Sequence record: MK482689.1
Origin: Escherichia phage vB_EcoM_LMP33
Reading direction: 5' to 3' (one strand)
DNA: 64,000 bases
Shown here: one piece after another, positions 30,410 to 39,694 of the stretch
Layout of the letters: each line of letters begins with the position of its first letter
Numbering within the stretch: the stretch's first letter is position 1
The notes under the pieces: generated by a model
The model's database searches: none
What the model was told of the DNA's origin: nothing
What the model saw: only the letters and a program-made list of their open reading frames with translations
Made by a program: the position numbers and the translations under genes

Positions 30410-31195
30410 ATGGGTATTGTAAAAATCATCAATGGCGATATCTTTGCAGCATTTGATAAAGGTAAGTTTGACATCATTGGTCACGGTTGCAACTGTATGA
30501 ATTTAATGGGTGCAGGTATCGCTGACAAGATTTCTAAACTTTACCCAAAAGCATATGAGACCGATACAGAAGTTTACCTCTATGCAGGTGGTATAGGTCA
30601 CAAACCCTGTGAAAATCTACTGGGTAATTTCTCTGTAGCACGTTTAGAACAAGGCCGTATAGCTAACCTTTACACTCAGCTTAAGACTGGTAAAGATGCC
30701 CGATACAGTGCTTTAGAGTCATCTTTGAAACAACTTAACAGATACTGTGAAGTCAATCAGTTGAAGAAAGTTGGGTTACCTATGATTGGTGCAGGTATCG
30801 GTGGACTAGACCCTCAAGCCGTCACAGTTATCATTAATCAGGTGATGAAGAGTGTAGATGTGTATCTTTATGTCTACGAAGGAGAGATGTACCACAAGTT
30901 ACGCTCAGGTTGGAAGAACTACTGTGAACCAGAATACTTTGCAGGTGTAGCAGTGTTCACAGATAACGCAGTTACCCTCTTCAGACGAAGAAAAGGTAAG
31001 ATACATCAAAGTAACCCTCCGGTTGAAAAGATGTCTCTAAGTAACGCTCTAGTTACCCACCTGTCGAAGAGCAATCACAGGATTGCAGTAACATTTGGCA
31101 GTGATGCAGATACTTATATCTATGCAAGAACTGATGAGGATATCGAGACAGTTTTCTCTTCACCAGAAGTTACCTTCTTAGACGCAAAGAACTAA
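30410..31195 (+). CDS. macro-domain protein (ADP-ribose binding/processing), putative
   Basis: N-terminus IINGDIFAAFDKGKFDIIGHGCNCMNLMGAGIA matches the macro-domain pattern (GDI...IVN.AN...G.GVA.AI). Confidence 0.45.
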   Translation: MGIVKIINGDIFAAFDKGKFDIIGHGCNCMNLMGAGIADKISKLYPKAYETDTEVYLYAGGIGHKPCENLLGNFSVARLEQGRIANLYTQLKTGKDARYSALESSLKQLNRYCEVNQLKKVGLPMIGAGIGGLDPQAVTVIINQVMKSVDVYLYVYEGEMYHKLRSGWKNYCEPEYFAGVAVFTDNAVTLFRRRKGKIHQSNPPVEKMSLSNALVTHLSKSNHRIAVTFGSDADTYIYARTDEDIETVFSSPEVTFLDAKN

Positions 31196-31264
31196 GAAAC
31201 TCTGTAGGATATTCACAATAGCCTAAGCCTTTCTTATCTGGTAAATTTTTCAGGTAAGGAGGGC

Positions 31265-31448
31265 TTTTTCATTTCAGAATTGTGCAGGTAGAGTTCTGTA
31301 GAGAAATCTGTAGAGAGAATTTTGAACTCCAAAGAGAAAATTCATTTTCAAACTGTGCAGATAATCTCCAAAGAGCTTTTTCATTTTCAAAACGTGCAGA
31401 CCACACTCAGGTCGGGCAAGAAAAATCATTTTAGATTTGTGCAGGTAG
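31265..31448. repeat. four direct repeats (A/T-run)TCATTT(T)CA(A/G)A(A/C)(T/C)(T/G)GTGCAG, plus interleaved TCTGTAGAGA and CTCCAAAGAG duplicates
   Basis: Copies ending in GTGCAG at about 31287, 31360, 31400 and 31446; no credible ORF in the region. Confidence 0.6.
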
Positions 31449-31460
31449 GTTTTTATAGAG

Positions 31461-31503
31461 AGCCAGACCAACCCCTCTCCCCCTCTTACTCCCCCTCTCC
31501 CCA
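31461..31503. other. polypyrimidine C-rich tract (CCCCTCTCCCCCTCTTACTCCCCCTCTCCCC)
   Basis: Unusual C-rich low-complexity run in an AT-rich genome, immediately after the repeat cluster. Confidence 0.5.
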
Positions 31504-31654
31504 AAAGTCAAGAGAAAAATTTGTAGCGGATTGAAAAATAATTCTTGATTTGTGTTCTGTTTTGTGGTAGTTGTGTGCGCCCGTTTCATTACAGTTTTGC
31601 CAAAAATATTTTTAAAATTTTTTCTTGACTCTTTGAACGTGGTTATCTAGTATT

Positions 31655-31716
31655 TGCATCAACGGGGAGGGAATGACCTTCCCCACTAAATAAAGTCCTA
31701 AACTGGAGATTCAAAA
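31655..31716 (+). promoter_or_regulatory. type A leader element (hairpin GGGGAGGG-AATGA-CCTTCCCC + conserved RBS), preceded by TTGACT-N17-TAGTAT
   Basis: Conserved CAACGGGGAGGGAATGACCTTCCCCACTAAATAAAGTCCTAAACTGGAGATTCAAAAATG; one of 7 copies. Confidence 0.55.
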
Positions 31717-32100
31717 ATGGCATATCGTGCACCTAAATTCATCAACAAAGACAACTTTCGCAACGCACTGGAGAAGTCACTTGATGAGAATTTTAAAGGT
31801 AACATTATCGTTGTTCACGCATTCAATTTTAAGTATGATGTAAACGGGAATAGAATCAACCATTACACGGCAACCATGTTAGATGGTACACTTTCAAGTG
31901 AAAAAGCCGTACTAAATGCACTGGCAGGACGTGGAAAGGTATTAGTAAGATGTGATAAGAGACGTTATCAGGGCGGCGCATATGGTTATGATGATGCTGT
32001 TTACCATCTTGAAAATATGGGCTATCAAGTAGAAAAAGCTGGAGCATCACAAATCATCGGCAGCGATGGTTATGTAACTATCTTCAAAATTAACAAATAA
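31717..32100 (+). CDS. hypothetical protein (cassette ORF 1)
   Basis: 127 aa; ATG 7-8 nt after conserved GGAG RBS of a type A leader. Confidence 0.45.
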   Translation: MAYRAPKFINKDNFRNALEKSLDENFKGNIIVVHAFNFKYDVNGNRINHYTATMLDGTLSSEKAVLNALAGRGKVLVRCDKRRYQGGAYGYDDAVYHLENMGYQVEKAGASQIIGSDGYVTIFKINK

Positions 32101-32186
32101 AGTACTTTACAAGGGGCTTATAGTTCGATAAAGTAAGCCCCAGATAAAGAGCTTTACCACTCAATCCTAAATTGGAGAACTTAAAA
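32101..32186 (+). promoter_or_regulatory. type B leader element (hairpin GGGGCTTA..TAAGCCCC + AGATAAAGAGCTTTACCACT + conserved RBS)
   Basis: Begins within the stop region (..AATAAAGTACTTTACA) of the upstream ORF; possible TTTACA-N17-TAAAGT promoter overlapping the hairpin; one of 6 copies. Confidence 0.5.
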
Positions 32187-32480
32187 ATGGCTATTATCAA
32201 AAACGTTGTAATTACTGCAAAGACTCGTGATGACGCTCGCGTTATGGCTAAAAAGTTATGCGGGAAAGTGGTTGACAACGGAAAACAATCTGCTGTAAGG
32301 TGGGGCGTGAAGGTTGATAAACAGTTGAAGTTAAAAAATTCACCGATAAACCTTTTTACATGTGTAAACACTATCGGGAAGACAAATGTATACACGAAAA
32401 AGGCATACATTAGACGCGTAGCATTAACATCCCCCATTCGTACAATGAGAAGTTATGCAAAGCTGAAAATTAACAAATAA
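32187..32480 (+). CDS. hypothetical basic protein (cassette ORF 2)
   Basis: 97 aa from ATG at 32187 (MAIIKN...), the start conserved within the leader repeat; track start at 32172 is a TTG. Confidence 0.45.
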   Translation: MAIIKNVVITAKTRDDARVMAKKLCGKVVDNGKQSAVRWGVKVDKQLKLKNSPINLFTCVNTIGKTNVYTKKAYIRRVALTSPIRTMRSYAKLKINK

Positions 32481-32565
32481 AGTACTTTACAGGGGGCTTA
32501 AAAGCTGATATCTTAAGCCCCAGATAAAGAGCTTTACCACTAAATCCTAAACTGGAGATTCAAAA
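32481..32565 (+). promoter_or_regulatory. type B leader element
   Basis: AGTACTTTACAGGGGGCTTAAAAGCTGATATCTTAAGCCCCAGATAAAGAGCTTTACCACTAAATCCTAAACTGGAGATTCAAAAATG. Confidence 0.5.
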
Positions 32566-33078
32566 ATGAAAACTGTAGACGCTACCTTTGAAGTTGTAAA
32601 AGAAAAATTTTCCATCATTTACGAAGCAGTTAATTGCTTTGAAGCAAGCCATAATCTTGATAATTGGGAATTTACAGATGACCATCAAGGCGGTGTGACG
32701 ATTAAAAATCCTAGCTGTCAGCGTAATGAATTTAAATATGCAATCCCTTTACATTACAGCCTTAAACAGCTTTCAAGTGACTATGCAAAACAAGGCCGGG
32801 AAAACCCATCAAAAGAGGCTTACATCAGCTTACAGAAAGAACTAGAAAGAGATTTAGAGGCTTCAGAATATAACATCGCCGCGAAAGTTGTAGATGCAAA
32901 CGGTAGCACGGTTTTAGAGAGTTTTTATATTGGTTATGCTTTCGATTGGTGCTATCGTGACGGCGATGATTTAGAGGATAGACTAAAAGAAGAGGTGAAC
33001 AACGCAGACGCAGAATCTGAAGTATTAGAACGTTTGGAATCGTTGAAAGACTCAGTGATGAATATCTTTAAGAACTAA
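32566..33078 (+). CDS. hypothetical acidic protein (cassette ORF 3)
   Basis: 170-aa ORF after type B leader. Confidence 0.45.
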   Translation: MKTVDATFEVVKEKFSIIYEAVNCFEASHNLDNWEFTDDHQGGVTIKNPSCQRNEFKYAIPLHYSLKQLSSDYAKQGRENPSKEAYISLQKELERDLEASEYNIAAKVVDANGSTVLESFYIGYAFDWCYRDGDDLEDRLKEEVNNADAESEVLERLESLKDSVMNIFKN

Positions 33079-33170
33079 ATAGATTTCTTTACACGGGGTT
33101 ACCAGACTGATAAGATAGCCCCAGATAAAGAGCTTTATTCAAATCAACCCTTAAACTAGGAGATTCTAAA
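33079..33170 (+). promoter_or_regulatory. type B leader element (divergent variant)
   Basis: ..CACGGGGTTACCAGACTGATAAGATAGCCCCAGATAAAGAGCTTTATTCAAATCAACCCTTAAACTAGGAGATTCTAAAATG. Confidence 0.45.
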
Positions 33171-33467
33171 ATGAAATTATCAAATAAAGTCCGTGAAAAT
33201 TTAAGCAAGTTACTTAATAAAATTGATTTCATTGAAACATCAAGGAATAGTCATGATGTTATGGAATGGTTACACGGAAAAATCAAAGGCCGTCGTGTAG
33301 TGATTTGCTTATGGAACAGTTGCAGGGAGTATAAAAAACCTGTATTGCAAGTCAATATTTATGATGATACTTTTAAAAGTCCTGTAAAGTCTAAAAGCGA
33401 TTTATTAGAATCCTATGAGATAACTGTAAATGGCAAAGTATCACGTAAAGAGGAAACACCATGTTAA
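33171..33467 (+). CDS. hypothetical protein (cassette ORF 4)
   Basis: 98-aa ORF. Confidence 0.4.
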   Translation: MKLSNKVRENLSKLLNKIDFIETSRNSHDVMEWLHGKIKGRRVVICLWNSCREYKKPVLQVNIYDDTFKSPVKSKSDLLESYEITVNGKVSRKEETPC

Positions 33468-33793
33468 TGACTGGTATCACTGCAATCATTGCCATTTTCG
33501 CGCTATATAAGGCATATAAAGCCTATAATCTGGCAAGTAAGGCAATCACACAACAGGTTAATAATAACCTTGTAATGAGCTTTCTAGAGCGTTTAAGTGA
33601 TGAACAATTAAAACGGCTAGAAATGAGCTTTAGATTCAGGGCGAGAACTTATCAAATCAGTGACATTTTCAAAGATAATTTTCAATTAGTCGATGATTAT
33701 AATTCTCTGATAAATGCTTTAAATATTAGTGACTTAAAAGATTATCACGCTGTAATTGTTCAAGAATTGAGCAAACGAAAACAAAACTGTTGA
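33461..33793 (+). CDS. hypothetical membrane protein (cassette ORF 5)
   Basis: 110 aa, N-terminal TM helix (MLMTGITAIIAIFALY); start overlaps the upstream stop; no leader repeat. Confidence 0.4.
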   Translation: MLMTGITAIIAIFALYKAYKAYNLASKAITQQVNNNLVMSFLERLSDEQLKRLEMSFRFRARTYQISDIFKDNFQLVDDYNSLINALNISDLKDYHAVIVQELSKRKQNC

Positions 33794-33882
33794 CACTGAT
33801 TTTTAGATAGATTAAATTACACATCAACGGGGAGGTAATAACCTCCCTACTAAATAAAGTCCTTAAACTAGGAGATTCAAAA
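33785..33882 (+). promoter_or_regulatory. type A leader element with sigma70-like promoter (TTGACA-N17-TAAATT) + hairpin + RBS
   Basis: TTGACA 33790-33795, TAAATT 33813-33818, hairpin GGGGAGGTAATAACCTCCC, then conserved TAAACTAGGAGATTCAAAAATG. Confidence 0.6.
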
Positions 33883-34155
33883 ATGTATACTACTAACAAC
33901 GGTCGTACTTTAAATGTCACTCTACGTCACTATGTTGATGGTGTAATGTGCTTTGATGATTTACAAGCTGAGCAACACATCTTAGATTGGCAAGTAGCAG
34001 GACTCCAAAAAACTGCTACCGGATACGGGAAAAAGATTCCAACTAGCTGGAAAGTACACTATGAAGGCCGTTTGCGCAGAATTTATCAAGATGTGCAAAG
34101 CAATAGCGCATCGAGTTACATTATAGTAAAAGGCAAAAAACTGCATTTAATGTAA
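33883..34155 (+). CDS. hypothetical protein (cassette ORF 6)
   Basis: 90-aa ORF. Confidence 0.4.
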   Translation: MYTTNNGRTLNVTLRHYVDGVMCFDDLQAEQHILDWQVAGLQKTATGYGKKIPTSWKVHYEGRLRRIYQDVQSNSASSYIIVKGKKLHLM

Positions 34156-34241
34156 AGTACTTTACAAGGGGCTTATAGTTCGATAAAGTAAGCCCCAGAT
34201 AAAGAGCTTTACCACTAAATCCTAAATTGGAGAACTTAAAA
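34156..34241 (+). promoter_or_regulatory. type B leader element
   Basis: Near-identical to the copy at 32101-32186. Confidence 0.5.
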
Positions 34242-34646
34242 ATGGCTATTAATAACCGTGAATTATCAATTTTAAAAGCACGTTTGACCGTTAACCGGAT
34301 TAATGTTATCACGTCATCAGCACCAGATGAAACACTGCAAAACATTATTGGGAAGATTCAAAGTGTTATCTTAGACGTTGAAAGCGTAAAAAATTCATTG
34401 GCTGACGTTGCAGCAGGTATCACACTAGACGGTGCGCAATATGAAATGTCCGACATGTTAGGCAAATCTAAGGTAATGAATAAAGAGTTAGATTTGAAAA
34501 TGTTCCGATTTGCTGTTAAAGTGTGGCTATCTGTCGAGTATGATGCTAACTTTGCAATCGCTGACTTTTTCGCCACTTGGTTGCAGCGTAATTTGACTAA
34601 TCATGACTTCCGCGATATCTGTGATGCAATTTATGCAGAACTCTAA
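34242..34646 (+). CDS. hypothetical protein (cassette ORF 7)
   Basis: ATG at 34242 (MAINNREL...); track start at 34227 is a TTG. Confidence 0.45.
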   Translation: MAINNRELSILKARLTVNRINVITSSAPDETLQNIIGKIQSVILDVESVKNSLADVAAGITLDGAQYEMSDMLGKSKVMNKELDLKMFRFAVKVWLSVEYDANFAIADFFATWLQRNLTNHDFRDICDAIYAEL

Positions 34647-34655
34647 AAAATTTTG

Positions 34656-34747
34656 TTGACACTGGTTTTTAGATAGATTAAATTACACATCAACGGGGAG
34701 GGAATGACCTTCCCCACTAAATAAAGTCCTAAACTGGAGATTCAAAA
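34656..34747 (+). promoter_or_regulatory. type A leader element with sigma70-like promoter (TTGACA-N17-TAAATT)
   Basis: TTGACACTGGTTTTTAGATAGATTAAATTACACATCAACGGGGAGGGAATGACCTTCCCC... Confidence 0.6.
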
Positions 34748-34951
34748 ATGGCTATTATTAATGGTTTAACCATTGAAACTACACACATCAAAGATATCAA
34801 AGTTGGTGATATAGTCCTTTCCCACGGCGTAGAAAAAACTGTCACTGCAAAGGATATCAAAGAGGATTCTTTCATGGGTAGGACTCTCTTCGGTGATTCT
34901 TATTGCTTAGGCTATCTTGCAGTTTTAAAAGTTGTCAAAAATAACAAATAA
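34748..34951 (+). CDS. hypothetical small protein (cassette ORF 8)
   Basis: 67 aa (MAIINGLTIE...). Confidence 0.4.
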   Translation: MAIINGLTIETTHIKDIKVGDIVLSHGVEKTVTAKDIKEDSFMGRTLFGDSYCLGYLAVLKVVKNNK

Positions 34952-35037
34952 AGTACTTTACAAGGGGCTTAAAAGTTGATAACTTAAGCCTCAGATAAAG
35001 AGCTTTACCACTAAATCCTAAACTGGAGATTCTAAAA
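34952..35037 (+). promoter_or_regulatory. type B leader element
   Basis: AGTACTTTACAAGGGGCTTAAAAGTTGATAACTTAAGCCTCAGATAAAGAGCTTTACCACTAAATCC... Confidence 0.5.
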
Positions 35038-35286
35038 ATGATGAACTACTTTAACATTCCCGATACCTGTAGATTATTGACACAAGAAGAAAATTTGGGT
35101 AAACCTTTCATTTACCACATGCCAGATAACACGGCAAAAACTTATAGTTACAATGTTAACCGTTTCACCGCATACGCTGCAAAGAACGGCTATAGGTTGG
35201 TTACTCAAAAAGTGATGCTGGTTACAATCGCTGACGAGGTTCCTACGGTTGCAGTTAAACTAATTTTCTCAAAGAAAGTTAAATAA
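35038..35286 (+). CDS. hypothetical protein (cassette ORF 9)
   Basis: 82-aa ORF. Confidence 0.4.
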   Translation: MMNYFNIPDTCRLLTQEENLGKPFIYHMPDNTAKTYSYNVNRFTAYAAKNGYRLVTQKVMLVTIADEVPTVAVKLIFSKKVK

Positions 35287-35373
35287 AGTACTTTACAAGG
35301 GGCTTATAGTTCGATAAAGTAAGCCCCAGATAAAGAGCTTTACCACTAAATCCTTAAACTAGGAGATTCAAAA
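35287..35373 (+). promoter_or_regulatory. type B leader element
   Basis: Near-identical to 32101-32186 and 34156-34241. Confidence 0.5.
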
Positions 35374-35916
35374 ATGAAATGCTATCACGGAACTACTCAA
35401 GAAAATTTCCTCAACCTGATTAATAACGGTGATAAACCATCAGGCGCATGGAATTGTTCGGATATGGACGGCAATTTTTACGTGTATCCAGAAAATAAAA
35501 TCTATGGCGACGATGAGGAAGAAATAGCATCAGAGGGCATTCAGCAAGCTCTAGGCAATGCCACTATCACCGCAGCTTTTCAGATGAAGACTCAAAATAT
35601 TGTTATCTTAGAACTCGATATTCCAGAGGATGAGCTAAATGATGATTATTCTTGTGATAATATGTCGAGTGTAGCAAGTTTTACAGAGTACTTTGATGTA
35701 AATTGGATTAAAAAGGTCTATACAACAGAGTTTAATGCGATGTTTTCGCCTTTTTGTCTTCCTTCATTGGATAACCCAAATTTAAACTATCTTGACGAGT
35801 CTCTGGAGCTTCTTGCTAAAAGTGTACAACAGTCGGACAGTATTCATGTTTTTTGTGACATCATGGATACACTGACAGGAAACATTGCAGAAGAGGATTT
35901 AAAGAGCTTTTTCTAA
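35374..35916 (+). CDS. hypothetical acidic protein (cassette ORF 10)
   Basis: 180-aa ORF. Confidence 0.45.
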   Translation: MKCYHGTTQENFLNLINNGDKPSGAWNCSDMDGNFYVYPENKIYGDDEEEIASEGIQQALGNATITAAFQMKTQNIVILELDIPEDELNDDYSCDNMSSVASFTEYFDVNWIKKVYTTEFNAMFSPFCLPSLDNPNLNYLDESLELLAKSVQQSDSIHVFCDIMDTLTGNIAEEDLKSFF

Positions 35917-35982
35917 AAACCTATGCAATCACCTTATAAACACTAATCAGCCCCTTGTAGGGGCTTTTAGAGGGCTTAAATC

Positions 35983-36216
35983 ATGCTTACAACCGTTTAT
36001 CTCATCCTCTCAATTTGTAATGGCCATTCATGTGACTTTAAAGGGCTTGAAGAGTTTACAGGAAGTAAAGAAAATGCTATTCAAGTTTGCCAGATAGCAA
36101 GGAAAGACTATCCCGCTAGTGATGATATACAATGTTACTTTAAGACAGAAGATGACGACGGAATCTATTTCGACAGTGTTGACGGTCAGTATGAAATTAT
36201 CATTGAAAAAGACTAG
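35983..36216 (+). CDS. hypothetical small protein (cassette ORF 11)
   Basis: 77 aa; preceded by a different hairpin (AGCCCCTTGTAGGGGCT), not a type A/B leader. Confidence 0.35.
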   Translation: MLTTVYLILSICNGHSCDFKGLEEFTGSKENAIQVCQIARKDYPASDDIQCYFKTEDDDGIYFDSVDGQYEIIIEKD

Positions 36217-36229
36217 ACAAGCCTGATAA

Positions 36230-36308
36230 AAATCTGTAAATTGTCAATCAACGGGGAGGGAATGACCTTCCCCACTAAATAAAGTCCTTAAACTAGGAGA
36301 TTCAAAAA
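36230..36308 (+). promoter_or_regulatory. type A leader element
   Basis: CTGTAAATTGTCAATCAACGGGGAGGGAATGACCTTCCCCACTAAATAAAGTCCTTAAACTAGGAGATTCAAAAAATG. Confidence 0.55.
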
Positions 36309-36650
36309 ATGGCTTATGTAACCGTAATTACCGATAAAGCTGGCGCATCTTGGTCAACTCAGGTTAGTGATAAGATGTCACCTATGCAGTGCCTAAAATA
36401 CTTTGAACAGTGGAACAAAGGCGAGGACACAAGCCCCTTTCAAGTGATGCAGATTATCCATGTAGACAACGAAGGGAATAAAACGACGCTGAATAGTGAG
36501 TACTATGCAAGCCGTTTTGAAACGAGAAGTAAAACAATGAAACTTTTACGTGAATCCGGTTATGCCCATATCGCCGCGTTAATCTGGGATGACCTGCTAA
36601 AAAGTCAGCGTATCAGCTATGTAAAACCTGAAAAAATATTCATCAGTTAA
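36309..36650 (+). CDS. hypothetical protein (cassette ORF 12)
   Basis: 113-aa ORF. Confidence 0.45.
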   Translation: MAYVTVITDKAGASWSTQVSDKMSPMQCLKYFEQWNKGEDTSPFQVMQIIHVDNEGNKTTLNSEYYASRFETRSKTMKLLRESGYAHIAALIWDDLLKSQRISYVKPEKIFIS

Positions 36651-36805
36651 TCAATAACTTACAAAAAAACTTTTAAAAAAGTGTTGACAATACCCATTGA
36701 CATTGGTAACTTTGTTCGAGGGGGTTATCTAAAAGGGATTCACTTAAAAGATTCTTTATAGATAAGCTCAAAAAATTACTTGCAATCAACTATCAAAACA
36801 AGTAA

Positions 36806-36870
36806 ATTACTAATCAACGGGAAGGCAATAACCTCCCCACTAAATAAAGTCCTAAACTGGAGATTCTAAA
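36806..36870 (+). promoter_or_regulatory. type A leader element (variant hairpin GGGAAGGCAATAACCTCCCC)
   Basis: Preceded at 36685-36710 by tandem TTGACA boxes (TTGACAATACCCATTGACA). Confidence 0.5.
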
Positions 36871-37401
36871 ATGAACAAATTTCAAGCTATCAACTTCATT
36901 CGTTCAAATGCTGTAATGTCTAAGCCTGTAAAAGATACATACGAATTCCGTTGTAATGGGGTACATTTCGCAACAATCACCAAATCAGAAAACGGGGCTT
37001 ATTACGTTCATCGTCGTAATGTTTCAACCGTTGTAGTCTCTCACTTTATGCAAGCTGTAGCGGAATTATTACCGTTATTCTTAGAGATTTACTTAGATGA
37101 GTGTAAAAACGTTCACAACCACGTTAAAAGCCTTTTAAACGGTTATAAAATGGCTTATGAACGCTCTATCAAGTCCTTAAACAAGTTTTACAATGCACCT
37201 GCAAATACTGTTTCAATGGCTTATGATGTAAACGGTGAGTTAGTTAGTCTCTTTAAAGTGGAAGAAATTAAGCTGTATAATTTACGTCCTAGTGGTTACT
37301 CTAAGACTCTTGGTGAAGGTTTATCCTTTAATATCAAGAACTTAGAAAAAACTTTAAAAGACATTGAAAAAGATATTGACGAGACAATCAAAAGTCTGTA
37401 A
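36871..37401 (+). CDS. hypothetical protein (cassette ORF 13)
   Basis: 176-aa ORF. Confidence 0.45.
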   Translation: MNKFQAINFIRSNAVMSKPVKDTYEFRCNGVHFATITKSENGAYYVHRRNVSTVVVSHFMQAVAELLPLFLEIYLDECKNVHNHVKSLLNGYKMAYERSIKSLNKFYNAPANTVSMAYDVNGELVSLFKVEEIKLYNLRPSGYSKTLGEGLSFNIKNLEKTLKDIEKDIDETIKSL

Positions 37402-37467
37402 ATTGTCAATCAACGGGGAGGGAATGACCTTCCCCACTAAATAAAATCCTAAACTGGAGTTATCAAG
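37400..37467 (+). promoter_or_regulatory. type A leader element
   Basis: CTGTAAATTGTCAATCAACGGGGAGGGAATGACCTTCCCCACTAAATAAAATCCTAAACTGGAG... Confidence 0.55.
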
Positions 37468-37731
37468 ATGGAAAACGTAGAATTAACCACACTTTTACAA
37501 ATTGCAACCGACAAAGAAGATGTAGCATTATTTCACCGTATCGAAAGTGATTTGTTCAATGGTGAAATCATCAAAGAATCTTACGAAGTTGTCGGATTCA
37601 AAGATGGTAAAGCGTTTGGCTTTTTTGACCTCGATAAAGGCAACGCTGTTACAAAGTATGATGTTGTATCTTGTGAGATTCTTACAAAATACAACGAAAA
37701 AAGGCTTGCAACATACGCCAATATGCAGTAA
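37468..37731 (+). CDS. hypothetical protein (cassette ORF 14)
   Basis: 87-aa ORF. Confidence 0.4.
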   Translation: MENVELTTLLQIATDKEDVALFHRIESDLFNGEIIKESYEVVGFKDGKAFGFFDLDKGNAVTKYDVVSCEILTKYNEKRLATYANMQ

Positions 37732-37797
37732 ATTACTAATCAACGGGGGATGACCTCCCCCCCACTAAGTAAAGTCCTAAACTGGAGAATCTAAATT
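37731..37797 (+). promoter_or_regulatory. type A leader element (variant hairpin GGGGGATGACCTCCCCC)
   Basis: TAAATTACTAATCAACGGGGGATGACCTCCCCCCCACTAAGTAAAGTCCTAAACTGGAGAATCTAAATTATG. Confidence 0.5.
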
Positions 37798-38046
37798 ATG
37801 TCAACTATCCGCGTAACTGTTAATGCTTATGGCTGCCACGAACTTGATGCAAAATTCGATATCGGTGGAACAGATAACACCTTTGACCTTATCAAAATGC
37901 TGATTCAGCAGGTGCTACCAGATTATAACCCTACCGATGACTTTTGGAAGGACGCTGTAAAAGAAGCCATAAACGAGGAATATCACTACCACTACTGGGG
38001 AGAAAAAATCGTCTCCCTATACTACAGCAAACAAGGTTACAACTAA
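37798..38046 (+). CDS. hypothetical protein (cassette ORF 15)
   Basis: 82-aa ORF; last gene before the long noncoding region. Confidence 0.4.
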   Translation: MSTIRVTVNAYGCHELDAKFDIGGTDNTFDLIKMLIQQVLPDYNPTDDFWKDAVKEAINEEYHYHYWGEKIVSLYYSKQGYN

Positions 38047-39694
38047 TCGACGCAACGGGGCTAAATAGCCCCAGATACCTGAAAAGCTCCTTCTCATAGG
38101 GGCTTTTTTACGTCTATGTAATAGCCTCTATACAACCCTTTCCCTTTCCTTCCTAGAATCTATCCCACTAATTCGATAGAATCTATCTCATACCTTAAAA
38201 AGCAATAACTCTATAGTCTACTCTATAACCTTTTATCAAATCAACTTAAATAAAAGCCAATAACCCCAGAAAGGGGATGGCCCATTTAAATGCTCTATAA
38301 AGCTCTATAACAGCCTTATCAACCTAACTTAAGGGATTGCATTAACCAACCTTAAAAAGCTCTTTACAGGGCTTTATAGAGGCTTAAAAGAATCTTATAA
38401 GGTTATAAGCTTTATTATCTCGTTAGCTATCTTGTGAATATCTAAAAAGGGCTTGTTAGTGTCTTAAAAGTATGTTATAGGGGCTATAAAGTTACTTTGA
38501 AGTTGCTTAAAAGTTACGTAAATGCTAGCCCCCTTAACATTTTCTTAACAATTTCTTAACAATCCCTACATAGTTATGCTTGTTAGCAACTTGTTAGCCC
38601 CTTGTTAAATCTCTGTTAAGACAACGTAAAAGCCTTGTAAGAACCTTTGACATAGCCTTTAAAGCCCCTGTAAAGCCTTATAAAGAGGTATCTGTACAGT
38701 TGGGGTGTAATTACTAGGAAGAGGCTTAAAAGAGCTTATAAAGAGCTATAGAGAGCTTTTAAGAGGTATGTTTAGAGAATCACTAAGAGGGAAAGGGAAC
38801 GATAAGAAAAGAGTAGTGACCATGTTAATAGCTTGTTAAAAAGATTAAACACTTGTTAGAAACTTGTTAATTATCTTAACAAAATAACTCTTAAAAATTA
38901 ACTTGTTAGCTCTTGTTAGTCATCTGTTAAGATTCTGTAAAGCCTATGTATCAACTGTTAAGAACTTGTTACAACCTTGTTAGTTCTGTTAAGAATCTGT
39001 TAAGACCTCTGAAGAGATGTTAAGAACTTGAGAGAGTTGTTAAGGAATTGTTAATGATATTTAAAATTTTGCAAAGTACTTGTAAGGGAGTTGTTAAGGG
39101 CTACCAAGCAGATATACATCTTCTACAGATATTTTTCAGTTCCTTCAAAGACCCTAAAAAATGACTTGATAGTCCTATTTTATAAAAATTTTAAGATTCT
39201 GAATAATTACCTATACAGCCTTTCTAAAATACAGGTAATAACAGGCTTATAAGATACCTTGTTAGTACCGTGTTAGACCTTGTGAGATAAGGTCTGTGAA
39301 GATATTCCTGTTAAGTTTGTTAAAACAGTCTATATAGAGGCTTAGTAATACCTAGTGAACACCTATAGAGAGTGTCATAGCTAACCTAGAGATTAAGAGG
39401 TGTATAGGAGCTTCTAAGAGGGTATAGAGAGGTGGTTAAGGTGATTGTATAGGTTGTTAAGAAGGCTTGTTAGAGGGCTTGTTAGAAGGGTTATACAGAG
39501 GGCTATTAAGACCACTAGATAGATACTAAGATACTATATAGTACTATATAACTATATATAGAGAGTAAGCTTAAGAAGGTTGTTAAGAAGGGTAGATATT
39601 TTGTTCACATATGATGGTGACCCAGAGGTTGGGACAACCGATAAAATTTTATAAAAATTAAAAAGCCCCCAATTAAGGAGGCTCTTAAGATATT
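38047..39694. repeat. about 1.65-kb ORF-free region dense in short degenerate repeats ((C)TTGTTA(G/A), CTGTTAAG, TATAAAG, CTTAAAAG; tandem TTCTTAACAA x2 near 38543-38564)
   Basis: No ORF of 60 aa or more on either strand; dozens of TTGTTA(A/G)-type motifs; lies between convergent plus and minus gene clusters. Confidence 0.7.
39661..39686 (-). terminator. intrinsic terminator for minus-strand cluster
   Basis: On minus strand: AGCCTCC..GGGGGCT hairpin + TTTT just downstream of the stop at 39695. Confidence 0.45.

What the first reader, a model, noticed from the sequence alone, without database searches (positions are those of the whole stretch)
31655..38046. Array of 15 small ORFs, 13 of them each preceded by one of two conserved leader elements
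Seven type A elements (sigma70-like promoter in several copies, hairpin GGGGAGGG..CCTTCCCC, conserved RBS) and six type B elements (hairpin GGGGCTTA..TAAGCCCC, AGATAAAGAGCTTTACCACT, same RBS) alternate in front of unrelated 67-180-aa ORFs. The repeats extend into the stop of the upstream ORF (..AA(C/T)AAATAAAGTACTTTACA) and the first codons of the downstream one (ATGGCTATT..). This looks like cassette shuffling by recombination between regulatory repeats, as described for promoter-stem-loop elements in hyperplastic regions of T4-type phages. Such regions typically hold host-takeover and anti-defense genes; none of the 15 products is recognisable.
Basis: partly seen in the sequence, partly recalled or inferred. 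Interest (0 to 1): 0.75.

Follow-up and report, generated by a model that had tools for sequence, protein, structure and literature searches.

The report
Promoter-hairpin gene cassettes in FelixO1-like phage
An early-gene region of a Felix O1-like coliphage is built from small genes of unknown function, each carrying one of two repeated promoter-hairpin-ribosome-site leaders, and recombination between these leaders has shuffled the gene set so that almost every related phage has a different one; this mechanism was previously described only for T4-like phages.

Summary
The window is Escherichia phage vB_EcoM_LMP25 (Felixounavirus). In detail: 15 small same-strand ORFs at 31.7-38.0 kb, 13 preceded by a type A (7) or type B (6) element. 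The elements occur nowhere else in the 88-kb genome.

All seven A copies, not just several, carry TTGACA-like/N17/TAAATT promoters 10 nt upstream of a 6-8-bp hairpin. Type B is also a promoter (TTTACA-N17-TAnnnT in 183/184 distinct copies). Its spacer and -10 lie inside a hairpin that, in read-through RNA, extends to about 20 bp and shows strong covariation and many G.U pairs.

Across 66 related loci there are more than 30 array architectures. The same ORFs sit behind A or B leaders, junctions are in register, and junction elements are two-parent mosaics with crossovers spread along the repeat. Copies evolve partly in concert.

Promoter activity and hairpin function are inferred, not shown. 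RNase III processing is geometrically plausible only for type B.

All 15 products are distinct PHROGs of unknown function; o10 models as an ADP-ribosyltransferase fold.

Verdict: a real and well-supported new member of a known kind, of moderate interest.

The parts
31625..31716 (+). Type A element A1 (leader of o1): -35 TTGACT 31625-31630, -10 TAGTAT 31648-31653, hairpin 31664-31684, SD 31705-31708
31717..32100 (+). o1, 127 aa, PHROG 4495, unknown function; variable (present in 7/10 compared loci)
32098..32186 (+). Type B element B1 (leader of o2): upstream stop TAA 32098-32100 = start of extended hairpin 32098-32156; -35 TTTACA 32106-32111; -10 TAAAGT 32129-32134; SD 32174-32177
32187..32480 (+). 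o2, 97 aa, PHROG 5089; variable (6/10)
32478..32565 (+). Type B element B2 (leader of o3): hairpin 32478-32536, -35 32486-32491, -10 TATCTT 32509-32514
32566..33078 (+). o3, 170 aa, PHROG 4190; core (10/10); Felix O1 ORF16, maximal at 5 min
33080..33170 (+). Type B element B3 (leader of o4-o5), variant stem GGGGTTACC/GATAGCCCC: hairpin 33080-33137, -35 33088-33093, -10 TAAGAT 33111-33116
33171..33793 (+). o4 (98 aa, 33171-33467) and o5 (110 aa, 33461-33793), overlapping, one two-gene cassette; PHROGs 4401 and 4375
33790..33882 (+). Type A element A2 (leader of o6): -35 TTGACA 33790-33795 contains the TGA stop of o5; -10 TAAATT 33813-33818; hairpin 33829-33848
33883..34155 (+). o6, 90 aa, PHROG 3436; core
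34153..34241 (+). Type B element B4 (leader of o7): hairpin 34153-34211, -35 34161-34166, -10 TAAAGT 34184-34189; 99% identical to B1 over 99 nt
34242..34646 (+). o7, 134 aa, PHROG 4327; core; Felix O1 ORF20, maximal at 5 min
34656..34747 (+). Type A element A3 (leader of o8): -35 TTGACA, -10 TAAATT 34679-34684, hairpin 34695-34715; 5' parent of Felix O1's chimeric o7|o12 leader
34748..34951 (+). o8, 67 aa, PHROG 3623; variable (5/10)
34949..35037 (+). Type B element B5 (leader of o9): hairpin 34949-35007, -35 34957-34962, -10 TAACTT 34980-34985
35038..35286 (+). o9, 82 aa, PHROG 9030; most variable (2/10); absent by B-B exchange in many phages
35284..35373 (+). Type B element B6 (leader of o10-o11): hairpin 35284-35342, -35 35292-35297, -10 TAAAGT 35315-35320
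35374..36216 (+). o10 (180 aa, 35374-35916; ADP-ribosyltransferase-like fold) then conventional hairpin + T-run (35949-35969), then o11 (77 aa, 35983-36216)
36214..36308 (+). Type A element A4 (leader of o12): -35 TAGACA 36214-36219 contains the TAG stop of o11; -10 TAAATT 36237-36242; hairpin 36253-36273
36309..36650 (+). o12, 113 aa, PHROG 4318; core; Felix O1 ORF21, maximal at 5 min
36780..36870 (+). Type A element A5 (leader of o13): -35 TTGCAA, -10 TAAATT 36803-36808, weaker hairpin 36819-36838; preceded at 36684-36770 by an extra promoter-like site and an 18-bp hairpin
36871..37401 (+). o13, 176 aa, PHROG 4725 (homologues carry PF26821)
37376..37467 (+). Type A element A6 (leader of o14): -35 TTGACG lies inside o13; -10 TAAATT 37399-37404 contains the TAA stop of o13; hairpin 37415-37435
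37468..37731 (+). o14, 87 aa, PHROG 7022; variable (4/10)
37706..37797 (+). Type A element A7 (leader of o15): -35 TTGCAA inside o14; -10 TAAATT 37729-37734 contains the stop of o14; variant hairpin 37745-37763
37798..38046 (+). o15, 82 aa, PHROG 4559
38053..38110 (+). End of the array: relic A/B-hybrid hairpin CAACGGGGCTAAATAGCCCCAGATACC, then a conventional terminator (AGGGGCTTTTTT)
   Evidence: homologous to Felix O1 terminator t23

Best explanation
What it is: the region is the early accessory-gene array of a Felix O1-like phage (Felix O1 genes 14-23). It is organised as self-contained expression cassettes. Each cassette is one small ORF, or a coupled pair, preceded by a repeated leader of about 90 nt that runs from the previous gene's stop codon to the ATG.

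Both leader families contain a host sigma70-type promoter with an A/T-rich upstream stretch, a G/C-clamped hairpin, and a shared ribosome-binding module (ACTAAAT..CCT(T)AAACT(A)GGAGATTCAAAAATG).

Type A: the hairpin starts 10 nt after the -10 box, so it should be the 5'-terminal stem-loop of the cassette's own mRNA. I infer that it protects the 5' end.

Type B: the -35 (TTTACA), spacer and -10 are embedded in a hairpin that can form only in RNA reading through from the upstream gene. It begins at that gene's stop codon and reaches about 20 bp. I infer that it attenuates, terminates or processes upstream transcripts and insulates cassettes, as was shown for T4-type PeSL stem-loops.

How it evolves: the leaders are long direct repeats, so the general homologous recombination machinery crosses over between them. 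This deletes, inserts or swaps whole cassettes in register and partly homogenises the leaders. Each Felix O1-like phage therefore carries a different subset of these genes without loss of expression signals.

Shown here: the anatomy, conservation pattern, covariation, mosaic junctions and concerted evolution. Inferred: promoter activity, transcription start sites, the RNA role of the hairpins, and the biological role of the ORFs.
For: Identity and confinement.

Type A promoter: 161 of 163 distinct copies have a -35 within 2 mismatches of TTGACA at a 17-nt spacer. All 163 have TAnnnT exactly 10 nt before the stem. 45 hairpin variants nearly all still fold.

Type B promoter: TTTACA-N16-18-TAnnnT is present in 183 of 184 distinct copies. 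The TA is invariant and the three middle bases are free. The TA keeps its distance to the -35 even when the 3' arm shifts by 1 nt. An independent scanner finds 5 of 7 A and 5 of 6 B promoters.

Type B hairpin:
- Upper stem: 97.9% paired, 5 of 9 pairs compensatory, 0 of 500 shuffles reach the observed score.
- Whole 20-bp three-tier helix: 96.8% paired, 7 of 20 pairs compensatory, 0 of 500 shuffles.
- Energy: dG about -24 kcal/mol, z about -3.1.
- Frequent G.U pairs make this a sense-strand RNA structure.

Type A transcript: the predicted mRNA has the hairpin at +4 to +24 and leaves the SD essentially free.

Recombination:
- Chimeric Felix O1 o7|o12 leader, and in-register o14, o9, o2 and x12 differences.
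- Alternative neighbours and leader types for the same ORF.
- More than 30 architectures.
- Junction spacer lengths equal canonical ones.
- Mosaic fits of 0-4 mismatches against 13-58 for a single parent, with crossover zones in at least 4 parts of the element for the same o8-B-o10 junction.
- Concerted evolution: all four ESCO45 B copies carry the compensated GGTGC/GCACC stem and are 91-96% identical to each other, against 81-93% to their orthologues.
- Gene content is twice as variable as in the flank.

Conservation of the design: the same arrangement is present in Erwinia phage phiEa21-4, including a third sequence family whose hairpin also straddles the spacer and -10.

Timing: Felix O1 ORFs 16, 20, 21 and 22 (= o3, o7, o12, o13) are maximal at 5 min.

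Precedent: PeSLs with a stem-loop between -35 and -10 are strong promoters, and their stem-loop reduces downstream lacZ like a strong terminator (PMC2839356).
Against: - No transcript data exist for these phages in the searchable literature, so promoter use and start sites are inferred.
- The raw count of promoter-like sites in this AT-rich region is not above shuffled expectation (29 vs 23.5). The argument rests on conservation pattern, not on matches alone.
- Neither hairpin is followed by a T-run, so classical intrinsic termination is not predicted.
- The type A stem is G-run/C-run with little true covariation.
- The final T of the type B -10 is also part of the stem in most copies.
- Copies from related phages are not independent samples.
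- Every intergenic space here is an element, so any viable whole-gene indel would look 'bounded'. Only the register, the mosaics and the concerted evolution discriminate.
- Some losses are not repeat-mediated (o4 and o11 in ESCO45).
- The excess plasticity over the flank is modest (0.186 vs 0.088).
- Short-read assemblies can mis-join at repeats. However, Sanger-sequenced Felix O1 shows the same kind of junction.
Confidence: 0.78

Rival explanations
1. The hairpins are ordinary rho-independent terminators and the repeats are simply terminator-promoter pairs, as several GenBank records annotate them. Gene-content variation arises by unrelated illegitimate recombination, and selection leaves only intergenic junctions.
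For: ASO1A, KhF1 and XTG1 records annotate the type A hairpins as terminators. A PeSL stem-loop behaved like a strong terminator in a lacZ assay. The o4 and o11 losses in ESCO45 are not repeat-bounded.
Against: No T-run follows either hairpin. The type A hairpin lies downstream of its own promoter, so an efficient terminator there would abort its own transcript. KhF1 and XTG1 place the 'terminators' on the wrong strand. Junctions are in register and are two-parent mosaics, and copies evolve in concert. Random illegitimate joins in ~86-nt spacers would not produce this.
Confidence: 0.12
2. The hairpins are RNase III processing sites that cut a long early polycistronic transcript into monocistronic mRNAs, as in the T7 early region. 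The promoter-like hexamers are incidental.
For: Type B in read-through RNA forms a ~20-bp helix with a 3x3 internal loop. From my knowledge of T7 R1.1-type sites, not checked in a paper here, that geometry resembles an RNase III substrate. The sites lie between genes and are followed by no terminator tail.
Against: Type A stems are only 6-8 bp, which to my knowledge is far below the roughly two helical turns RNase III needs. The TA...T of the type B hexamer is kept at a fixed distance from TTTACA independently of the stem register, and RNA processing does not explain this. The lower-stem covariation rests on one pair. Processing and promoter roles are not mutually exclusive for type B.
Confidence: 0.2
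3. The repeats are selfish mobile DNA (MITE-like or REP-like, or targets of a site-specific recombinase or homing enzyme) that spread into the intergenic spaces, and are not regulatory elements maintained for expression.
For: Many near-identical copies exist (99-100% over 65-99 nt within one genome). The PeSL authors speculated about a protein that recognises GGGG...CCCC.
Against: All copies have one orientation. They always span exactly from a stop codon to an ATG and always end in an SD at the correct spacing. They are confined to one 6.4-kb region of an 88-kb genome. There are no target-site duplications or terminal inverted repeats. Crossover points are spread over the whole element and not at one site. 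No recombinase was recognised among the array ORFs.
Confidence: 0.05

Closest known systems
PeSLs (promoter-early stem-loops) of T4-like phages RB49/phi1, PST/T4 and nt-1/KVP40 (Arbiol et al. 2010, PMC2839356; Comeau et al. 2014, PMC4122927)
   Same: Both are composite intergenic repeats of ~100 bp. Both begin at the upstream stop codon in an A/T-rich stretch and contain a sigma70-like promoter with a 17-nt spacer and a GGGG...CCCC stem-loop. In PeSLs the stem-loop is most often between -35 and -10 or overlapping -10, exactly as in type B. Both end with an SD and an ATG. Both are clustered in a region of small, dispensable ORFs of unknown function. In both, indels and replacements between relatives are bounded by the elements, with chimeric junction elements and crossovers anywhere between the -10 and the ATG.
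   Different: The host phage belongs to another subfamily (Ounavirinae, 88 kb, not a T4-like phage). BLAST searches with A and B returned Escherichia, Salmonella, Shigella, Citrobacter and Erwinia phages, and every record listed was 41-90 kb. So these are analogues, not demonstrable homologues. Here there are two sharply defined sequence families that share one RBS module (plus a third family in Erwinia phages), not one loose consensus. All copies sit in a single array. The type A stem-loop lies after the inferred start site, inside the mRNA. The type B stem extends to ~20 bp and includes the upstream stop codon. Promoter and terminator activity and mini-circles have been shown for PeSLs but not here.
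The '57-bp and 39-bp direct repeats' listed in the Felix O1 genome paper (Whichard et al. 2010, PMC3185647)
   Same: They are the same sequences. The 57-bp repeat is the type B core and the 39-bp repeat is the type A promoter, located between genes 15/16, 19/20 and 18/19, 20/21.
   Different: That paper reports them only as direct repeats. They appear neither in its promoter list nor in its terminator table, and no link to gene-content variation is made.
5'-terminal stabilising stem-loops of E. coli mRNAs (ompA type) and RNase III sites of the T7 early region
   Same: Type A places a stable hairpin an inferred 1-4 nt from the mRNA 5' end. Type B has the intergenic position and the ~20-bp interrupted helix of the T7 sites.
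   Different: These are resemblances by geometry only, recalled from general knowledge and not from a paper read here. No start sites, half-lives or cleavage data exist for these phages.
Integron gene cassettes
   Same: Both are arrays of small promoterless-looking ORFs separated by structured repeats, with cassette gain and loss.
   Different: Here there is no integrase and no attC-type imperfect palindrome. Each cassette brings its own promoter. Exchange looks like general homologous recombination.

Membership tests
PeSL-type regulatory cassettes | Composite intergenic repeat (~100 bp) running from the upstream stop codon, in an A/T-rich stretch, to the downstream start codon | tested here: met
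   13 of 13 elements. Stop codons lie inside the repeat: TAA opens the type B hairpin, and stops lie inside the -35 or -10 of A2, A4, A6 and A7.
PeSL-type regulatory cassettes | sigma70-like promoter hexamers with a ~17-nt spacer | tested here: met
   Sequence level only. A: 161 of 163 copies. B: 183 of 184 copies, with TA...T conserved and the middle bases free.
PeSL-type regulatory cassettes | Promoter is active early in infection | not testable with these tools
   Indirect only: Felix O1 ORFs 16, 20, 21 and 22 are maximal at 5 min by RT-PCR.
PeSL-type regulatory cassettes | Stable G-run/C-run stem-loop at a defined position relative to the promoter (between or overlapping -35 and -10, or downstream of -10) | tested here: met
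   In B the stem arms lie in the spacer and over the -10, with covariation 0 of 500 shuffles. In A the stem starts 10 nt after the -10 in 163 of 163 copies.
PeSL-type regulatory cassettes | Stem-loop acts as a terminator or attenuator of upstream transcription | not testable with these tools
   No T-run follows either hairpin. The function is inferred from the PeSL lacZ assay.
PeSL-type regulatory cassettes | Shine-Dalgarno and ATG at the 3' end of the repeat | tested here: met
   GGAG lies 9-13 nt before the ATG in all 13 elements, within a shared ~30-nt module.
PeSL-type regulatory cassettes | Copies clustered in a variable region of small dispensable ORFs | tested here: met
   All copies are in one 6.4-kb array. 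More than 30 architectures exist. Gene content is ~2x more variable than in the flank.
PeSL-type regulatory cassettes | Indels and replacements between relatives bounded by the repeats, with chimeric junction repeats | tested here: met
   Exceptions: the o4 and o11 losses in ESCO45.
PeSL-type regulatory cassettes | Excised cassette mini-circles detectable by inverse PCR | not testable with these tools
   Experimental.
PeSL-type regulatory cassettes | Described scope: T4-like myoviruses; sequence relatedness to the RB49/phi1 elements | tested here: not met
   The host is Ounavirinae. Sensitive BLAST of A and B listed only Felix O1-like and phiEa21-4-like records. I therefore file it as an analogue that works like a PeSL, not as a homologue.
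Rho-independent terminator | G+C-rich hairpin immediately followed by a T-run | tested here: not met
   Not met for the A or B hairpins. Met only by the hairpins after the phosphatase gene, o10 and o15.
RNase III processing site (T7 early type) | About two turns of dsRNA, often with an internal loop, in an intercistronic position | tested here: inconclusive
   Type B: 20 bp with a 3x3 loop, with moderate covariation support. Type A: 6-8 bp, which is too short. Cleavage is untestable here.
5'-terminal stabilising stem-loop | Hairpin within a few unpaired nucleotides of the mRNA 5' end | tested here: inconclusive
   The fixed 10-nt gap between the -10 and the stem implies 1-4 unpaired nt if the start lies 6-9 nt after the -10. 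No start site has been mapped.

The most novel reading that the evidence does not exclude
The two leader families may be two different RNA-fate devices, not interchangeable promoter-terminator units.

Type B would be one ~60-nt sequence with two readings. In DNA it is a promoter. In read-through RNA it is a 20-bp processing or stabilising hairpin whose lower stem contains the upstream stop codon. A terminating ribosome would then transiently melt it, coupling upstream translation to transcript processing or attenuation.

Type A would give its mRNA a protective 5' stem-loop.

The exchange of leader types in front of the same ORF (o1, o8, o9, o10, o12) would then be a way to re-tune the dose and timing of accessory genes. 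Cassette mini-circles could move such genes between co-infecting Ounavirinae. That would show PeSL-style modular exchange to be a general strategy of virulent phages, not a T4 peculiarity.
Probability: 0.25. Interest if true: 0.65.

Novelty: new member of a known kind. Interest (0 to 1): 0.5.

Why it matters
- The PeSL authors stated in 2010 that there was no evidence yet for this kind of plasticity outside the T4-like phages. This array shows the same solution in an unrelated subfamily of virulent myoviruses: self-sufficient promoter-hairpin-RBS cassettes that recombine in register. It is conserved from Felix O1-like coliphages and Salmonella phages to Erwinia phages. That supports the idea that it is a general route by which lytic phages turn over accessory genes.
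- Practically, Felix O1-like phages are used for Salmonella typing, biocontrol and therapy. This region is where otherwise near-identical isolates differ, and it is a place where assemblies break.
- The roughly 25 cassette families seen here are a defined pool of early, dispensable genes of unknown function to screen for host-takeover or anti-defence activity. One of them is an ADP-ribosyltransferase-like protein.
- The compact leaders may also serve as portable strong expression signals.

Tried and rejected
- Rfam, with permissive E-value search, over 31.0-39.8 kb: nothing relevant.
- Pfam on all 15 ORFs: no hit above threshold.
- PDB sequence search with o10: nothing.
- Literature searches for stem-loop or intergenic descriptions of these elements, or for transcriptome or start-site data in Felix O1-like phages: nothing. 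Genome papers give only generic promoter and terminator predictions.
- PhageMaP paper on Bas63: describes large essential and nonessential segments but gives nothing specific to this array in the main text. I did not search the supplements.
- o6/o8 paralogy suggested by my first clustering: rejected as a single-linkage artefact.
- First plasticity control (Jaccard on ORF families): too noisy (0.35 vs 0.30). Replaced by homologue presence/absence.
- Apparent tandem duplication of o2 in IMG/VR locus L013: a perfect 430-bp repeat joined out of register at ATG|CTTTACA. It may be an assembly artefact and is not used as evidence.
- Raw promoter-consensus counts: not significant in this AT-rich DNA, so I did not rely on them.
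- True covariation in the type A stem: not assessable, because the stem is made of G-runs and C-runs with slippage.

Full report
**Identity and observation**

The window matches Escherichia phage vB_EcoM_LMP25 (MK482688.1, Ounavirinae, Felixounavirus) at 100% identity, and 261 related phage records share the region. At 31717-38046 there are 15 + strand ORFs of 67-180 aa. Each hits a different PHROG of unknown function at E<=2e-32, and none has a Pfam hit above threshold. They are therefore real, conserved, mutually unrelated genes. An initial hint that o6 and o8 are paralogues was a clustering artefact.

Thirteen ORFs are preceded by a repeat: seven by type A and six by type B. The diagnostic cores occur 6-7 times where chance expects 0.02-0.5. 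The shared RBS module is also array-specific. None of the motifs occurs in the rest of the window or in the remaining 24 kb of the genome. The two exceptions are o5, which overlaps o4, and o11, which follows a conventional hairpin plus T-run.

**Anatomy of type A**

I harvested 174 distinct copies from 66 loci, taken from GenBank relatives and from IMG/VR contigs of 44-94 kb. Of the 163 with an RBS module, 161 have a -35 within two mismatches of TTGACA at a 17-nt spacer. All 163 have a TAnnnT hexamer (TAAATT in 124) exactly 4 nt before ATCAAC, which is 10 nt before the stem.

In LMP25 the stop codon of the upstream gene lies inside the -35 (A2, A4) or inside the -10 (A6, A7). The -35 boxes of A6 and A7 lie within coding sequence.

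The hairpin exists in 45 sequence variants, nearly all of which still fold at -7 to -16 kcal/mol. Because the stems are G-runs and C-runs, this is structure-preserving variation and not classical covariation. A transcript started 6-9 nt after the -10 would carry the hairpin at about +4 to +24 and leave the SD essentially free. An efficient terminator at that position would abort the cassette's own mRNA. No T-run follows the hairpin. I therefore infer a 5'-terminal stabilising stem-loop. This is an inference from geometry and from general knowledge of 5'-end-dependent decay in E. coli.

**Anatomy of type B**

Anchoring 184 distinct copies on CTTTACA shows TTTACA-N16-18-TAnnnT in 183 of them. 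T, A and the final T are conserved, and the three middle positions are free (TAAAGT, TATCTT, TAAGAT, TATGAT, TAGTAT and others). The TA is invariant in 67 of 67 distinct hairpin sequences. It keeps its distance from the -35 even in the class whose 3' arm is shifted by one base. This is the signature of a -10 box and not of the stem. An independent scanner also reports 5 of 6 copies.

The 9-bp upper stem (GGGGCTTAT/GTAAGCCCC and variants) is 97.9% paired. Compensatory changes occur in 5 of 9 pairs, and 0 of 500 shuffles reach the observed score. Folding the read-through RNA shows that the two near-palindromic flanks, TAAAGTACTTTA and TAAAGAGCTTTA, pair with each other. The result is a 59-nt, ~20-bp three-tier hairpin (6 + 5 + 9 bp, with a 1x1 mismatch and a 3x3 internal loop). 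Its dG is about -24 kcal/mol and its z-score about -3.1. Over all 20 pairs, 96.8% of cells are paired, 7 pairs show double changes, and 0 of 500 shuffles reach the score. The lower helix has one clear G-C<->U-A exchange, and the middle tier is invariant because it is also the -35.

Abundant G.U pairs would be A.C on the other strand, so this is a sense-strand RNA structure. It can exist only in transcripts that come from upstream, because a type B-initiated RNA starts inside or after the 3' arm and is unstructured at its 5' end (last sequence). In 5 of 6 copies the hairpin begins with the upstream TAA.

**Comparative evidence for cassette exchange**

- In eleven annotated relatives, gene order is colinear but content differs.
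- Felix O1 lacks o8-o11, and its o7|o12 leader has the 5' half of LMP25's A3 and the 3' half of A4.
- The presence or absence of o14 is joined at GTAAATT (stop plus -10).
- o9 and o2 are lost by B-B joins.
- The extra ORF x12 is flanked by two copies of the RBS module.
- Across all loci, o1, o8, o9, o10, o12 and y5 each occur behind both A and B leaders and next to different neighbours.
- About 37 long loci show more than 30 architectures.
- Spacer lengths at non-canonical junctions equal canonical ones (B: median 87 vs 86 nt), so the joins are in register.
- Junction elements are reproduced by two-parent mosaics with 0-4 mismatches in 135 nt, where either parent alone gives 13-58 mismatches.
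- For the same o8-B-o10 join, crossover zones lie in at least four different parts of the element. This points to several independent events and to general homologous recombination, not to a site-specific enzyme.
- Leaders evolve partly in concert. All four B copies of ESCO45 carry the compensated GGTGC/GCACC stem and are 91-96% identical to each other, against 81-93% to their LMP25 orthologues. In PC79-13 the 'o4-type' hairpin also occupies the o7 and o10 sites.

As a control, the fraction of genes without a homologue in another phage's locus is 0.186 in the array and 0.088 in the adjacent repeat-free block of small genes (array larger in 73 of 110 comparisons). That is a real but modest excess. 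o3-o7 and o12 are core genes, while o1, o2, o8-o11, o14 and o15 are variable.

Not everything is repeat-mediated. The o4 deletion and the o11 decay in ESCO45 have other breakpoints.

**Distribution**

Type B is found in 288 GenBank phage records at about 4.7 places each, including 29 Erwinia phages. Type A is found in 251 records, none of them from Erwinia. In phiEa21-4 the array sits at the same place, after the phosphatase gene. It contains type B copies and a third family (TTGCAA-N17-GATTAT, with stem GGGGTTAT/ATAACCCC) whose hairpin again straddles the spacer and -10. The design is therefore conserved even where the sequence is replaced.

**Comparison with what is known**

The Felix O1 genome paper lists the type B core and the type A promoter only as 57-bp and 39-bp 'direct repeats'. 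They appear in neither its promoter list nor its terminator table. Later records annotate fragments as 'promoter' or 'terminator', sometimes on the wrong strand. I found no paper that treats them as composite elements or links them to gene turnover.

The closest system is the PeSL of T4-like phages. [quoted passage not shown] It ends with an SD and an ATG. PeSLs have demonstrated strong promoter activity, terminator-like activity of the stem-loop, chimeric junctions, and excised mini-circles.

Every sequence-level defining feature is met here. The activities and the mini-circles cannot be tested with these tools. The host lineage and the sequences are unrelated, so this is an analogue. I classify it as a new member of a known kind. 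The PeSL authors noted that no evidence existed for such plasticity outside T4-like phages.

**Function of the genes**

Felix O1 RT-PCR puts ORFs 16, 20, 21 and 22 (= o3, o7, o12, o13) at maximal expression 5 min after infection, which is consistent with host-polymerase early promoters.

**Verdict**

The hairpin mechanisms are my inferences: type A as a 5' protective stem-loop, and type B as a promoter overlapped by an attenuating or processing hairpin for upstream transcripts. The RNase III idea is possible only for type B. Interest is moderate. The finding is solid and extends a known principle to a new phage lineage, with some new anatomical detail, but it is not a new kind of system.

Noticed in passing
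window 38400-39600: About 1.6 kb without ORFs lies between the end of the array and the convergent minus-strand genes. It holds 25 copies of YTGTTAR (CTTGTTAG, CTGTTAAG, TTGTTAAG) on the + strand, against 0-2 per kb anywhere else in the window. The copies are often spaced 10-11 nt apart (38580/38591/38602/38613; 38903/38913/38924). This looks like a helically phased array of protein-binding sites (origin, packaging or terminal-repeat region?). Several relatives' linear records begin or end near here.
   Followed up: partly
window 31225-31510: Between the phosphatase gene and the first type A element there is a strong terminator (31225-31266). It is followed by four copies of TCATTTTnnAnnTGTGCA (31269, 31342, 31381, 31426) and a CT-rich tract (31470-31504). 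The same repeat, also in four copies, is conserved at the same place in Erwinia phage phiEa21-4. Function unknown.
   Followed up: partly
[not shown]
   Followed up: partly
window 30410-31195: The 261-aa 'phosphatase' just upstream of the array carries a Macro domain (Pfam E 1e-7), which is an ADP-ribose-binding or -removing module. This is of interest given the ART-like o10 about 4 kb downstream.
   Followed up: no
window 36684-36770: A near-consensus promoter-like site (TTGACA-N17-TAACTT) is followed by an 18-bp hairpin (dG -16 kcal/mol, z -2.6). It lies upstream of element A5 and is a unique extra leader in the o12-o13 spacer. GenBank calls a 29-aa ORF here.
   Followed up: partly
window 38053-38080: A relic hybrid element, CAACGGGGCTAAATAGCCCCAGATACC, has a type A 5' context fused to a type B 3' context. 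It has no promoter or RBS and sits just before the terminator that closes the array. It may be a decayed leader.
   Followed up: no
related loci (BPS17L1, D1-2, LMP34, ULIM8 records); L013 7000-7800: Several GenBank records start or end inside this array, and one IMG/VR contig has a perfect out-of-register 430-bp duplication of o2. This suggests that the repeats break or confuse short-read assemblies.
   Followed up: partly
proteins P0043-P0102 (homologues of o13, window 36871-37401): Homologues of o13 carry a precomputed Pfam family, PF26821, which the local Pfam copy did not report for o13 itself. I could not look up its description.
   Followed up: no
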